Assembly (NCBI RefSeq): GCF_013167455.1
Contig: NZ_CP038328.1
Source of the DNA: Escherichia coli O157:H7
Lineage (GTDB): Bacteria > Pseudomonadota > Gammaproteobacteria > Enterobacterales > Enterobacteriaceae
DNA: 64,000 bases
Reading direction: 5' to 3' (one strand)
Made by a program: the position numbers. The first letter of the stretch is position 1. Each line of letters opens with the position of its first letter. This document shows, one piece after another, positions 56,201 to 59,200 of the stretch.

Positions 56201-59200
56201 GTGGATCTGGTTTTCGCGCCCTCGGTAAAAGAGATCTACCCGAACGGTACTGAAACCCATACTTACGTTGACGTTCCAGGGCTTTCGACCATGCTGGAAG
56301 GCGCCAGCCGGCCGGGGCATTTTCGCGGCGTGTCGACTATCGTCAGCAAGCTGTTTAACCTGGTCCAGCCGGACATCGCCTGCTTCGGTGAAAAGGACTT
56401 TCAGCAACTGGCGCTGATCCGCAAAATGGTTGCTGATATGGGCTTTGATATTGAGATTGTCGGTGTGCCAATTATGCGCGCCAAAGACGGTCTGGCACTG
56501 AGTTCCCGTAACGGTTATCTGACGGCAGAACAACGCAAAATTGCGCCCGGTCTGTACAAAGTTTTAAGTTCGATTGCCGACAAATTGCAGGCTGGCGAAC
56601 GGGATCTCGATGAAATTATTGCTATTGCCGGGCAAGAACTGAATGAAAAAGGCTTCCGCGCCGATGATATTCAGATTCGCGATGCCGACACATTGCTGGA
56701 AGTCTCTGAAACCAGCAAACGGGCAGTAATTCTGGTAGCCGCCTGGCTTGGCGATGCTCGCCTGATCGACAACAAAATGGTCGAGCTGGCGTAATACTTA
56801 TACTCTAAATAATTCAAGTTGCAAGTTGCAGGAAGGCGGCAAGCGAGTGACAAATTCGTCAGGAACGAATTTGCCCAGCCGCAGGCTGGCCTTCGGTGAG
56901 AGACATGGATGTCTCTCATTAATCCCCAGGAGCTTACATAAGTAAGTGACTGGGGTTAGCGAACGCAGACGCAGCACATGCAATTTGAAGTATGACGAGT
57001 ATAACTGGCGCTACGGCTGATGGCGCCAATTATTAATTTGCCCCACGTCATGGCGATGGCGTCTGTAAGCAATTATTCATAACGCAGACAACTTAGTTAA
57101 TCAGCCTATCAATCTCAGCAAGAGATAAATTTGTCATCTCTGCAACGTCTTCCCGAGACATCCCTTTACTCAGAAAACGCTGGGCGAATTCTTGCCTCTC
57201 CTCCTGTCTTCCCTGCTGAATCCCCTTCTCAATCCCTTTCTCTTCAAACCACTGTGCCAGCGTCATCATAGACTTCCCTCCCGTTTCCCTGTCTCTCAGC
57301 ACACCATAAAACAAATCCGCTTGTTCAGTATGACCGCGTTGCAGCATATAGTTTTGCATGGCAACTAACTGACTTTCGCTAGTGTACCCTTCGTCAATCA
57401 GCGTGACCAGTTGCTCCAGCAATAACATTAAGTCGCGCTGGCGAATATGTTTTTGCAGTAGTTCGAGAATCGCAATCCGCCGATGTTGCATGATTTCGTC
57501 ATCCGGTGTGATGGTGATATCCACCAGCGGGAAAGGACTGTTATAGACGCGTCGCGCCAGCTCCGGCGAGTAAAACATATCAAACCAGCACATTGAGAGC
57601 GGATAAGGTGTGGCCTCGCCCTGATAAAAGAGAATCGGCACTACCAGCGGTAGTTTGTCGTGATCCGCCTCCAGATGCCGATGCATGGCGGCTATAGAAT
57701 AACGCATCATGCGAAAGGCCATTTTCTTATCCGGCTTGCTTTGGTGTTCAATCACAACATGCAGATAACCGGGATTGCCCTGCATTTGCACGGAATAGAG
57801 CACGTCCGTGCTGTGTCCTTTAAGGCTCTCTTCAATGAAACTCCCCGACTCTAAATGAAGCGTGTTGAGGTCACAAAGTTCGCGTAATTCCACTGGCAAA
57901 TGTATCTCCAGAAAGTCGCGAGCCGTCTCCGCATGCATTAAAAATTGTTTAAATACCGCGTCATGCGGTGTGGTACTCGGTGCATCCATCTTCCCTGTCT
58001 TCCGTGTTGTCTTGCGTGAAGGCAGTATCCAGTCAAGGCGTGCTATCGTCAGCCACCTCTTTATTGTTTACCGAGCAGCGTTCAGAGAAATATCAATTCG
58101 TTACAGGCGATACATGGCACGCTTCGGCGCGGTACGCAAACTGCTGATGCAAATGCCGTCAGATGAGTAGACACTAAACAAAAATCGGGCAATACTGCGT
58201 GAGAATTTCCTCAAAGCAGGCACCGCCTGCTTCGTTAACGACAGGGTAGAAAGGTAGAAGTTATGATTCGCACGATGCTGCAGGGCAAACTCCACCGCGT
58301 GAAAGTGACTCATGCGGACCTGCACTATGAAGGTTCTTGCGCCATTGACCAGGATTTTCTTGACGCAGCCGGTATTCTCGAAAACGAAGCCATTGATATC
58401 TGGAATGTCACCAACGGCAAGCGTTTCTCCACTTATGCCATCGCGGCAGAACGCGGTTCGAGAATTATTTCTGTTAACGGTGCGGCGGCCCACTGCGCCA
58501 GTGTCGGCGATATTGTCATCATCGCCAGCTTCGTTACCATGCCAGATGAAGAAGCTCGCACCTGGCGACCCAACGTCGCCTATTTTGAAGGCGACAATGA
58601 AATGAAACGTACCGCGAAAGCGATTCCGGTACAGGTTGCTTGATTGTTATCCCTGCGGCTGGTTACTCACCAGCCGCGACATCGTCTCCAGCGAATCCGT
58701 TCTTAAGATATAAAGTCGTTTTAGTAACAACGGATTATCCCCCGGTTTTACTTTGCCTTTCATGGTTGTCACCGCCAGGTGAAATCCGGCATCGTTTGCT
58801 GCCTTCACGGCTTTGTCATTAAAGCCGCCAAACGGATACGAAAGATACCAGACATGCGGATTAAATTGCGCCAGAGCGCGACGTGAACGTGCAAAATCAA
58901 ACAGAATATTGTGCTCACTACGGCTCAGTAATATGGGTCGGCGATAACCATCTACCCGATGCAAAAAATGGGTATGTGACTGGAAATCAAATACATCGCG
59001 AATTTCGTTAAGCTCAGAAACGCTCATAAATTGCAGCGATTTTGGTTCCCACTTCTGCGGGTGACGTTTGATGCGCGAGGTAACAATAAACGCCGTCGCC
59101 TTCATGCCATATTGTTTCAACACAGGATACGCATAGCGGCTCACTGACTTGAGGCCATCATCAAAGGTAATCACCACCGCTCGCGCAGGAAGATTGATCT

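What the first reader, a model, noticed from the sequence alone, without database searches (positions are those of the whole stretch)
56798..57003. Long-form ERIC element with about 75-bp internal insert between panC and rpnC
The element carries both canonical ERIC primer sites and is bounded by TATACTC...GAGTATA. Relative to the shorter copy at 15105-15232 it has an extra internal segment (about 56846-56920) with its own hairpins (CAAATTCGT/ACGAATTTG, GAGAGACAT/ATGTCTCTC). By my recollection of K-12 spacing, the panC-yadD gap there is too short to hold it, so it may be strain-specific. It lies in the 3' UTR of panC and after the rpnC stop.
Basis: partly seen in the sequence, partly recalled or inferred. 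Interest (0 to 1): 0.4.

Follow-up and report, generated by a model that had tools for sequence, protein, structure and literature searches.

The report
Long ERIC repeat after panC
This is an ordinary, already described kind of small mobile repeat (an ERIC element) that sits just after the panC gene in O157-type E. coli but not in K-12; its extra 71-base inner piece belongs to a family of tiny folded inserts that I also found inside unrelated repeats in distant bacteria.

Summary
Window 56799-57003 is a 205-bp ERIC element bounded by TATACTC...GAGTATA. It has both ERIC-PCR primer sites. Without its insert it matches 115 of the 127 positions of the E. coli ERIC consensus.

It lies 4 nt after the panC stop codon and just before the only terminator-like hairpin (57006-57028). 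K-12 has an empty site with a single TA; here TA flanks the element on both sides.

The site has three alleles in 5,426 complete E. coli genomes:
- Long ERIC in 408 genomes: O157:H7, O55:H7 and a few other lineages, plus Escherichia sp. E1V33.
- Short 127-bp ERIC in 19 genomes.
- Empty in the rest.

The long form differs by a precise 71-bp insert (56850-56920). The window's lineage also has a 7-bp tandem duplication.

ERIC elements, their ~70-bp inserts and their presence/absence between K-12 and O157 are all published, so the finding is already known.

The unexpected part concerns the insert. It is a three-hairpin module with compensatory base changes and has no Rfam match. It is also inserted precisely, always at GA|A, in four other settings:
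- CGTC-type REP repeats of Methylococcales.
- Domain IV of one group II intron.
- A third, unidentified palindromic element.
- Other positions within ERIC.

How it moves is unknown.

The parts
55943..56794 (+). panC (pantoate--beta-alanine ligase); stop codon TAA at 56792-56794
   Evidence: ORF list; RefSeq annotation of the identical stretch in strain 2017C-4109
56799..57003 (+). Long-form ERIC element, 205 bp including both flanking TA. As read on the + strand it is the reverse complement of the consensus as printed in PMC2759123.
   Evidence: Primer sites; terminal inverted repeats; 115 identities to the 127-nt consensus after removing the insert; empty site in K-12
56799..56800 (.). Left TA of the apparent TA target-site duplication; the right TA is at 57002-57003
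   Evidence: K-12 reads TACTTA|ACTGG with one TA. The window reads TACT-TA-[TACTC...GAGTA]-TA-ACTGG.
56814..56827. 7-bp tandem duplication CAAGTTG CAAGTTG in the left ERIC arm. It was seen only in the window allele among the alleles aligned (the exact matches include O157:H7 strains).
   Evidence: Absent from the long alleles of I3, PapRG-04-4, AH21 and E1V33, and from all short alleles
56850..56920 (+). 71-bp nested module (the 'insert'), placed between ERIC positions ...GAGTG(A) and (A)ATCCCC
   Evidence: Precise presence/absence against the short ERIC at the same site. The same module is at the same ERIC position at the ybfA and gyrA loci and in Klebsiella, Salmonella, Pseudocitrobacter and Citrobacter.
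56851..56873 (+). Module hairpin 1: CAAATTCGT / loop CAGGA / ACGAATTTG
   Evidence: Perfect 9-bp inverted repeat (I8). 99.3% of cells paired across 60 distinct homologues, and the 4 apical pairs change on both sides.
56875..56889 (+). Module hairpin 2: CCAGCC / GCA / GGCTGG. This form is specific to the enterobacterial module; other classes have a different short hairpin here.
   Evidence: Folds. Only 63% paired over all classes in the enterobacterial register.
56897..56918 (+). Module hairpin 3: TGAGAGACAT / GG / ATGTCTCTCA
   Evidence: Perfect 10-bp inverted repeat (I4). Two pairs covary: GC 32 / AU 26, and AU 42 / GC 14.
56918..56961 (.). ERIC core, with the ERIC1R site (56918-56939, - strand) and the ERIC2 site (56940-56961, + strand); the central hairpin is at 56924-56955
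   Evidence: I2
57006..57038 (+). Terminator-like hairpin TGGCGCTACGGCTGATGGCGCCA with the tail ATTATTAATT. It is conserved in K-12, where it follows the panC stop directly.
   Evidence: Terminator scan; inverted repeat I5; conserved in all alleles
57093..57989 (-). rpnC (yadD), convergent with panC
   Evidence: ORF list; RefSeq annotation

Best explanation
Window 56799-57003 is a long-form copy of ERIC (also called IRU or RU-1), the enterobacterial miniature inverted-repeat transposable element.

Shown:
- An ERIC inserted at a TA dinucleotide 4 nt after the panC stop codon, upstream of the pre-existing panC terminator hairpin.
- The allele is old. It lies on several diverged haplotypes and in a second Escherichia species.
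- It segregates in E. coli with a short-ERIC allele and an empty allele.
- The extra 71 bp is a separate nested module of three hairpins. It sits at one fixed ERIC position, GA|ATCC.
- The window's lineage also gained a 7-bp duplication.

Inferred:
- Because the element lies between the stop codon and the only terminator-like hairpin, it is transcribed as the panC 3' UTR.
- There it folds into a long stem with the module hairpins branching off it.
- A ribosome terminating 4 nt upstream would melt the outer stem.
- By analogy with Yersinia ERICs, this could expose the 3' arm to RNase E and change panC mRNA half-life.

I rate the element as selfish, near-neutral DNA with at most a modest effect on panC expression.
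For: - Identity: the primer sites occur only in the two ERIC copies of the window. Terminal inverted repeats are present. The element has 115 identities to the 127-nt consensus.
- Insertion: K-12 has an empty site with a single TA, whereas TA flanks the element here.
- Allele counts: 427 genomes have an ERIC at the site, 408 of them long, and 19 show the short form as a single BLAST piece.
- Age: long alleles lie on at least three haplotypes and in Escherichia sp. E1V33. All five short alleles aligned (of the 19) share an identical ERIC and a near-identical left flank, so they have one origin.
- Module: it is identical in position at three E. coli loci and in four other genera.
- Folding: the + strand RNA folds at -107.6 kcal/mol, z = -8.0, with the outer ERIC stem kept. 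The short form folds as a single hairpin at -54.2 kcal/mol.
- Placement: the terminator-like hairpin lies downstream at 57006-57028.
- Literature: ERIC is described as a 127-bp MITE with terminal inverted repeats and a TA duplication (PMC2229807, PMC3184786). Fourteen further ERICs are reported in non-K-12 strains (PMC10969869, citing Wilson and Sharp 2006). The RNase E model for Yersinia is summarised in PMC2229807 and PMC10969869. Papers on insertions within ERIC exist (Sharp 1997 and Cromie et al. 1997, listed in PMC3696847).
Against: - No transcript data were available, so co-transcription, folding in vivo and any effect on panC mRNA are inference.
- The Yersinia effect depends on orientation (PMC2229807), and I could not map this copy's orientation onto that work.
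- No transposase is known for ERIC, and no recent gain or loss was seen at this site. Mobility is therefore historical inference from the empty site and the TA duplication.
- ERIC differs less between haplotypes (2-4 of 127) than the flanks do (15-24 of 299). That could reflect selection or gene conversion rather than neutrality.
Confidence: 0.85

Rival explanations
1. The 71-bp module is an independent small mobile element. It inserts on its own, at GA|A inside hairpin-forming DNA or RNA. The long allele at panC arose when it entered a resident short ERIC.
For: - The same 71-nt architecture is precisely present or absent in unrelated hosts.
- In ERIC the site is GTGA|ATCC.
- In CGTC-type REPs of Methylococcales the site is GCCGGA|ATCCAG, with 43 empty and 22 filled REPs in the same loci.
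- In group II intron domain IV, L030 is filled and the related intron L140 is empty.
- A third palindromic host exists, and related modules sit at two other ERIC positions.
- Compensatory changes are present.
Against: - At the panC site itself, short and long alleles sit on deeply diverged haplotypes, so no in-situ event is visible.
- E. coli has at most 2 copies per genome, and 89% of genomes have none, so the module is not active there.
- Some metagenomic enterobacteria carry many long ERICs. That fits spread of the long ERIC as one unit.
- There is no target duplication, no terminal repeats and no candidate enzyme.
Confidence: 0.45
2. The long ERIC is a selected regulatory part of the panC 3' UTR: a stability determinant, a protein-binding platform or the source of a small RNA.
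For: - The module hairpins are kept by compensatory changes across orders.
- G.U pairs outnumber A.C pairs 17 to 6 on the strand read here.
- In a crude ORF-based survey, enterobacterial copies lie downstream of a same-strand gene 41 times and of an opposite-strand gene 19 times.
- ERIC is better conserved than its flanks.
- Yersinia ERICs alter mRNA stability (PMC2229807).
Against: - 92% of E. coli genomes, including K-12, lack any ERIC at this site.
- At the ybfA and K. pneumoniae ndk-rlmN loci the module is antisense to both neighbouring genes.
- There is no Rfam match.
- Hairpin conservation is equally expected for single-stranded DNA recognised by a mobility enzyme.
Confidence: 0.15
3. 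The short allele is derived from the long one, either by precise loss of the module or by gene conversion from another short ERIC. In that case the original insertion at panC was a long ERIC.
For: - The long allele is on several haplotypes and in Escherichia sp. E1V33, while the short allele has a single origin in 19 genomes.
- The short allele's ERIC shares GGGGTGAGCG and CAACTTG with E1V33.
- A deletion between 9-bp direct repeats inside a long ERIC is seen at the ybfA locus of strain GN25.
Against: The module boundaries share only a 1-nt repeat, so slippage would not excise it precisely. No intermediate haplotype was found.
Confidence: 0.4
4. The module is a fragment of a group II intron (domain IV, the reverse-transcriptase binding region) that was captured by ERIC.
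For: In metagenomic locus L030 the module follows directly after a strong group-II-D1D4-1 match (70.5 bits) and precedes the intron's reverse-transcriptase ORF.
Against: A related intron in a Methylocalor plasmid has the same domain III (67.8 bits) followed by GAAGGGCCGA|ACACGAG..., with no module. The module is therefore an insertion into that intron too. Only 1 of about 117 metagenomic copies is in an intron.
Confidence: 0.03

Closest known systems
[quoted passage not shown] 1991)
   Same: Consensus sequence, primer sites, terminal inverted repeats, TA at both ends, intergenic position next to a gene's 3' end, and a long RNA hairpin (PMC2229807, PMC2759123).
   Different: It is 205 bp rather than 127 bp, because of the 71-bp module and a 7-bp duplication.
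ERIC copies with ~70-bp internal insertions (Sharp 1997, 'Insertions within ERIC sequences'; Cromie, Collins and Leach 1997)
   Same: An insert of about 70 bp at a fixed internal site. The inserts are homologous between copies, and the interrupted element still folds well. From my recollection of how later papers cite this work, this is the class those letters describe.
   Different: I could not read either letter (only their titles, in the reference list of PMC3696847). Identity of this module with their insert types is therefore unverified. The occurrences outside ERIC and outside Enterobacterales could not have been seen with 1997 data.
Strain-polymorphic ERICs of E. coli (Wilson and Sharp 2006)
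   Same: Presence in O157:H7 and absence in K-12 at an otherwise shared intergenic site. The 2024 review (PMC10969869) quotes 14 extra ERIC sites in non-K-12 strains. From my recollection, the paper also reports unusually divergent flanks; I observed these here.
   Different: The paper is not held in the library, so I could not confirm that the panC-yadD copy is in its list.
Yersinia ERICs as mRNA stability elements (De Gregorio et al. 2005)
   Same: An ERIC lies immediately after a stop codon and is co-transcribed. In their model, the ribosome unmasks an RNase E site in the 3' arm (as summarised in PMC2229807 and PMC10969869).
   Different: This was not tested here. The orientation equivalence is unknown, and this copy has three extra hairpins.
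Insertion sequences that target palindromic repeats (for example IS1397 in E. coli BIMEs, cited in PMC3184786), and repeats nested in palindromes (PMC3733652)
   Same: Insertion at one defined position inside a hairpin-forming repeat.
   Different: The module is 71 nt, non-coding, and lacks terminal inverted repeats and a target duplication. No partner transposase is known.

Membership tests
ERIC / IRU MITE | Sequence match to the ~127-bp imperfect-palindrome consensus | tested here: met
   115 identical positions to the 127-nt E. coli consensus once the 71-bp insert is removed
ERIC / IRU MITE | Conserved central core carrying the ERIC1R and ERIC2 primer sites | tested here: met
   2 and 1 mismatches respectively; 0 matches expected by chance
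ERIC / IRU MITE | Terminal inverted repeats ending in TATAC... / ...GTATA | tested here: met
   Arms 56798-56826 and 56976-57004, 29 nt, 79% complementary
ERIC / IRU MITE | TA target-site duplication, with an empty site in a related genome | tested here: met
   K-12 reads TACTTA|ACTGG; the window has TA on both sides of the element
ERIC / IRU MITE | Multiple dispersed copies, in intergenic positions | tested here: met
   A second copy lies at 15105-15232 in the rpsB-tsf spacer. A median of 6 megablast places per genome match a query containing the element.
ERIC / IRU MITE | Transcribed, and folds as an RNA hairpin | tested here: inconclusive
   The predicted fold is strong (z = -8.0), and the element lies upstream of the terminator-like hairpin. 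No expression data were available.
Long-form ERIC (insertion class of Sharp 1997) | Insert of ~70 bp at a fixed internal position, homologous between copies | tested here: met
   The same 71-bp module lies between GAGTG and AATCCCC at three E. coli loci and in Klebsiella, Salmonella, Pseudocitrobacter and Citrobacter
Long-form ERIC (insertion class of Sharp 1997) | Same insert sequence as the published examples | not testable with these tools
   The 1997 letters and Wilson and Sharp 2006 are not held
Any Rfam RNA family | Covariance-model score at or above the gathering threshold | tested here: not met
   Only V_AS5 at 22.4 bits (threshold 96), spanning the whole ERIC. Nothing was found for the non-ERIC module copies.
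Group II intron fragment | The module is an intrinsic part of intron domain IV | tested here: not met
   Present in intron L030 but absent from the related intron L140 at the same point
IS200/IS605-type miniature element | Similar subterminal hairpins at both ends and a conserved cleavage motif at the right end | tested here: not met
   By inspection, hairpins 1 and 3 are unrelated in sequence. The right ends vary...CATTA...CATGC...GAGTG...GAGTAAC.
Intrinsic terminator | G+C-rich hairpin followed by a T run | tested here: not met
   No such site lies inside 56799-57003. The only site in the region is the separate hairpin at 57006-57028.

The most novel reading that the evidence does not exclude
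The '~70-bp insert' of long ERICs is not an ERIC feature. It belongs to a widespread family of ~70-nt structured insertion modules of Gammaproteobacteria. Their architecture is GA|CAAA-hairpin-TTTG ... CCCGAAGGG-yGAG-hairpin.

The modules enter hairpin-forming hosts at GA|A without a target duplication. The hosts seen are ERIC at three positions, CGTC-type REPs, an unidentified palindromic element, and a group II intron domain IV. This implies an undescribed mobility mechanism, or a conserved RNA or single-stranded-DNA function.
Probability: 0.4. Interest if true: 0.55.

Novelty: already known. Interest (0 to 1): 0.3.

Why it matters
For the finding itself, little. It is a lineage marker: O157:H7, O55:H7 and a few other lineages carry the long ERIC. 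Its length variation could contribute to ERIC-PCR band differences, and it gives natural 3'-UTR variants of panC (long, short, empty) that could be used to test whether ERICs affect mRNA decay in E. coli.

The side result has more potential. The insert is a module that recurs in unrelated repeat families across bacterial orders, with compensatory changes. This gives a concrete handle on an old small puzzle, namely where the ERIC insertions come from. It also suggests either a new kind of very small site-directed mobile element or an unrecognised structured nucleic-acid motif.

Tried and rejected
1. Chance palindromes: rejected by the primer-site and shuffle controls.
2. Known RNA family: Rfam at permissive thresholds gave only a sub-threshold V_AS5 match over the ERIC. 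It gave nothing for the module in three contexts.
3. Group II intron origin: one metagenomic copy abuts intron domain III, but a related intron lacks the module at that point. It is therefore an insertion there as well.
4. IS200/IS605-like or IS110/IS1111-like miniature element: the end hairpins are unrelated, there are no subterminal repeats, the right end is variable and no core duplication exists (inspection).
5. Operator-type protein binding site: rejected, because the apical base pairs change while complementarity is kept.
6. Phage or plasmid carriage: there were 0 hits in viral contigs. The plasmid hits lie beside chromosomal-type genes (ndk-rlmN, yeiE-yeiH, pdu) in very large records, probably mislabelled chromosomal sequence. 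The class C module has no plasmid hit.
7. Recent gain or loss of the module at the panC site: none was found, because the alleles sit on deeply diverged haplotypes.
8. Full-text search for the module sequence: no paper holds it.
9. Reading Wilson and Sharp 2006, Sharp 1997 and De Gregorio 2005: these papers are not held.
10. Taxonomy of the third (class C) host element: not determined.
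Full report
**1. What is in the window**

The window is E. coli. The stretch 56500-57300 is 100% identical to strain 2017C-4109 and to O157:H7 strains. The gene order is panB (55137-55931, +), panC (55943-56794, +), rpnC/yadD (57093-57989, -) and panD (58263-58643, +).

The 298-bp panC-rpnC spacer holds a 205-bp element at 56799-57003. It begins with TATACTC and ends with GAGTATA.
- The ERIC1R site lies at 56918-56939 (- strand, 2 mismatches) and the ERIC2 site at 56940-56961 (+ strand, 1 mismatch). The only other matches in 64 kb are in the copy at 15105-15232, and shuffles give none.
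- The terminal arms are inverted repeats of 29 nt at 79% complementarity.

The only corrections are a start one base later and an insert of 71 bp rather than about 75 bp.

**2. It is an ERIC**

I removed the 71-bp insert and aligned the remaining 134 bp to the 127-nt E. coli ERIC consensus printed in Delihas 2007 (PMC2759123). This gives 115 identities. The main difference is a 7-bp tandem duplication, CAAGTTG x2, at 56814-56827.

Reviews describe ERIC as a ~127-bp MITE with terminal inverted repeats, TA at both termini and a target-site duplication (PMC2229807, PMC3184786).

K-12 MG1655 has a 73-bp panC-rpnC spacer. Aligned to the window it reads TACTTA|ACTGG, with one TA where the window has TA-element-TA. 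Every defining ERIC feature that I could test is met.

**3. The site has three alleles**

Counts over 5,426 complete E. coli genomes:
- 427 genomes cover at least 80% of an 801-bp query spanning the site, so they carry an ERIC there.
- 408 genomes cover at least 80% of a 281-bp query that only the long form can satisfy.
- Exactly 19 genomes match a short-ERIC reference as one uninterrupted piece.
- The remaining genomes, K-12 included, lack an ERIC at the site.

The short allele is a canonical 127-bp ERIC at the same TA. It differs from the long one by the precise absence of 71 bp between GAGTG and AATCCCC.

The long allele lies on at least three haplotypes:
- O157:H7 and O55:H7, with the 7-bp duplication.
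- PapRG-04-4, AH21 and I3, with a TGCTTTTACTC left end. In I3 an IS1 lies where rpnC is in the other strains.
- Escherichia sp. E1V33, a separate species.

The five short alleles I aligned share an identical ERIC (0 of 127 differences) and nearly identical panC 3' ends (0-2 of 299). They therefore have one origin. They differ from the long haplotypes by 15-24 of 299 positions in panC but by only 2-4 of 127 in the ERIC.

This is an old polymorphism on deep haplotypes, and I saw no recent gain or loss. Presence/absence of ERICs between K-12 and other strains is published: a 2024 review quotes 14 extra ERIC sites from Wilson and Sharp 2006 (PMC10969869). That analysis, as I recall, included O157:H7 genomes. 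I could not open the paper to confirm that this site is listed.

**4. Position relative to transcription signals**

The element starts 4 nt after the panC stop codon (56792-56794). It ends 2 nt before a hairpin, TGGCGCTACGGCTGATGGCGCCA, with an ATTATTAATT tail at 57006-57038. This is the only terminator-like site in the region. The hairpin is conserved in all alleles, and in K-12 it follows the panC stop directly.

The ERIC therefore inserted between panC and its terminator. I infer that it is transcribed as the panC 3' UTR. For rpnC, the same hairpin lies between the gene and the ERIC.

Predicted folds:

| RNA | Free energy | z against shuffles |
|---|---|---|
| + strand, 56792-57045 | -107.6 kcal/mol | -8.0 |
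| - strand, same stretch | -95.8 kcal/mol | -6.6 |
| Short ERIC (single long hairpin) | -54.2 kcal/mol | -8.6 |

In the + strand fold the outer ERIC stem is intact and the module hairpins and the ERIC central hairpin branch from it.

In Yersinia, ERICs placed just after a stop codon destabilise the upstream mRNA. The proposed mechanism is that the terminating ribosome opens the hairpin and exposes an RNase E site in the 3' arm, and the effect depends on orientation (as summarised in PMC2229807 and PMC10969869). The 4-nt spacing here fits that geometry. Whether the effect occurs here is untested.

**5. The 71-bp insert is a recurrent module**

In E. coli the module occurs in only 611-615 of 5,426 genomes, at one or rarely two places. 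K-12 has none, even with sensitive blastn.

Besides the panC site, I found it near ybfA and upstream of gyrA, always inside an ERIC and at exactly the same ERIC position.

It is at that position in ERICs of other genera:
- Klebsiella pneumoniae, in the ndk-rlmN spacer.
- K. aerogenes, between yeiE and yeiH.
- Salmonella, between pduE and pduG.
- Pseudocitrobacter and Citrobacter.

Hairpin 3 shows compensatory changes between these genera: GAGAGAC/GTCTCTC, GAGGGAC/GTCCCTC and GAGAGGC/GCCTCTC.

Insertions of about 70 bp within ERIC, and their retention of RNA folding, were the subject of two 1997 letters (Sharp; Cromie, Collins and Leach). I could verify only their titles, in the reference list of PMC3696847. 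Long-form ERIC is therefore a known variant.

**6. The module also occurs outside ERIC**

An exact 20-mer of hairpin 3 hit three sites in a Methylumidiphilus alinenensis genome (order Methylococcales).

I judged three of them to be chance matches. The rest fall into four contexts.

- **Class A: ERIC.**
- **Class B: CGTC-type REP.** The host is CGTC-ATTCCGGCA-GGGAT-TGCCGGAAT-CCA, which matches the CGTC REP description of Di Nocera et al. (PMC3733652). The module lies between GCCGGA and ATCCAG. The same loci hold 43 empty and 22 filled REPs, and some empty copies have the same right flank as filled ones.
- **Class C: a third palindromic host.** Its consensus is ...GCAAAAGGCA|module|...GCCTTTTGCGGAT. 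It lies mostly between convergent genes.
- **A group II intron.** One copy lies in domain IV, between domain III (Rfam group-II-D1D4-1, 70.5 bits) and the reverse-transcriptase ORF.

The intron copy first suggested that the module is an intron part. A related intron on a Methylocalor plasmid has the same domain III followed by GGGCCGA|ACACGAG..., with no module. The intron too is only a host.

Some enterobacterial ERICs carry further, related modules: type 2 in the left arm and type 3 in the right arm. They share the architecture GA|CAAA-hairpin-TTTG-AAC-hairpin-CCCCGwAGGGG-yGAGG-hairpin-GAGTAAC. A type-2-like sequence is present in 437 E. coli genomes.

Every insertion point reads GA|A. The ERIC and REP modules are both 71 nt.

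**7. Structure support, with caveats**

I tested pairing on 60 distinct sequences (alignment A4).
- Hairpin 1 is paired in 99.3% of cells. Its four apical pairs change on both sides: UCGU/ACGA, CGGC/GCCG, CAAC/GUUG, CGAC/GUCG, CAGC/GCUG and UUGU/ACAA.
- Hairpin 3 is paired in 88.5% of cells. Two of its pairs covary (GC 32 / AU 26, and AU 42 / GC 14).
- With the 3' partners slid by 1-3 columns, pairing falls to 29-44%.
- G.U pairs outnumber A.C pairs 17 to 6 on the strand as read.

Caveats:
- My search pattern fixed the five basal pairs of hairpin 1 and the 5' strand of hairpin 3, so their invariance is ascertainment.
- Much of the hairpin 1 signal is the split between classes, although class C alone has several variants.
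- Hairpin 2 is not in register between classes (63% paired).

No Rfam family matches the module in any context, and no paper in the library holds its sequence.

A crude ORF-based survey finds enterobacterial copies downstream of a same-strand gene 41 times and of an opposite-strand gene 19 times. This is suggestive only, because the loci are redundant and the ORF calls are mechanical. At the ybfA and ndk-rlmN loci the module is antisense to both neighbouring genes.

**8. Mechanism**

Shown:
- The element is an ERIC.
- It inserted at a TA.
- The site has three old alleles.
- The module is precisely present or absent in at least three unrelated hosts.
- The module hairpins are maintained by compensatory change.

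Inferred:
- Co-transcription with panC.
- The RNA fold in vivo.
- A possible ribosome- and RNase E-dependent effect on panC mRNA.

Unknown: how the module moves. It has no terminal inverted repeats, no target duplication, unrelated end hairpins and a variable right end. It therefore fits neither IS630-type MITEs, nor IS200/IS605 miniature elements, nor IS110/IS1111 derivatives.

For Enterobacterales, the evidence cannot separate spread of the long ERIC as a unit from independent module insertion. Many long copies in single metagenomes favour spread as a unit.

**9. Verdict**

It is a known repeat family, a known long variant and a known type of strain polymorphism. I score the finding low for novelty.

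The most novel reading left open is that the ERIC insert belongs to a broader family of tiny structured insertion modules that target GA|A in hairpin-forming elements across Gammaproteobacteria. I give this a probability of about 0.4. It would be of moderate interest to people who study bacterial repeats and small mobile elements.

Noticed in passing
It is fixed: 5,423 of 5,426 E. coli genomes cover at least 80% of the 1-kb query spanning it, at >=99% identity. This contrasts with the polymorphic panC copy. One strain (TUM2367) matches in two pieces at 87% coverage, so it may have a deletion there.
   Followed up: partly
window 56500-57300 (panC 3' end and rpnC 3' end): Haplotypes of this region are unusually deep for E. 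coli. The last 299 bp of panC differ by 3-8% between empty, short-ERIC and long-ERIC alleles, and the rpnC side differs by up to 9%. ERIC itself differs by only 2-4 of 127 positions between alleles.
   Followed up: partly
window 57050-57071: A 22-bp stretch (ATGGCGATGGCGTCTGTAAGCA) between the terminator hairpin and the rpnC stop is present in all E. coli ERIC-bearing alleles aligned. It is absent from K-12, and E1V33 differs in this stretch.
   Followed up: no
window 56798-56983, - strand: A 61-aa ORF with a TTG start runs through the ERIC and the module. ERIC reverse complements are known to carry an ORF (PMC2759123). There is no evidence that this one is a gene.
   Followed up: no
window 56798-56999: The Rfam family V_AS5 (Vibrio antisense RNA AS5, RF02818) matches the whole ERIC end to end, but at 22.4 bits against a threshold of 96. 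That Rfam family may itself be built on a Vibrio ERIC copy.
   Followed up: no
L007 (E. coli GN25, ybfA locus) about 1501-1560: A long ERIC has lost half of the module and the ERIC centre through a deletion between two copies of the 9-bp direct repeat CAGTCGCAG. This is an example of repeat-mediated decay of these elements.
   Followed up: no
L141 (E. coli I3): An IS1A is annotated where rpnC lies in the other strains, about 65 bp beyond the end of the match that contains the long ERIC.
   Followed up: no
L017 / L018 (Salmonella enterica), about 401-477: A long ERIC with the module sits inside the pdu operon between pduE and pduG, in the sense orientation. It would be part of a polycistronic mRNA.
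   Followed up: no
L030 159-320 and L140 3007-3130: A group II intron carries the 71-nt module inserted in domain IV just upstream of its reverse-transcriptase ORF. A related intron on a Methylocalor plasmid lacks it.
   Followed up: yes
L074, L101, L111, L064, L137 (left arm); L131 (right arm): Some enterobacterial ERICs carry a second or third related module at other internal ERIC positions. A type-2-like sequence occurs once per genome in 437 E. coli genomes.
   Followed up: partly
L025, L031, L060, L077, L084, L092, L093, L102-L105, L122-L125, L128, L129: More than fifteen loci carry near-identical long ERICs (arm ...GGCGGCGACGCAGT). Those whose contig names were listed come from the related metagenomes Ga0316604, Ga0316602 and Ga0316615. 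This points to an unidentified enterobacterium in which the long form is a high-copy family.
   Followed up: no
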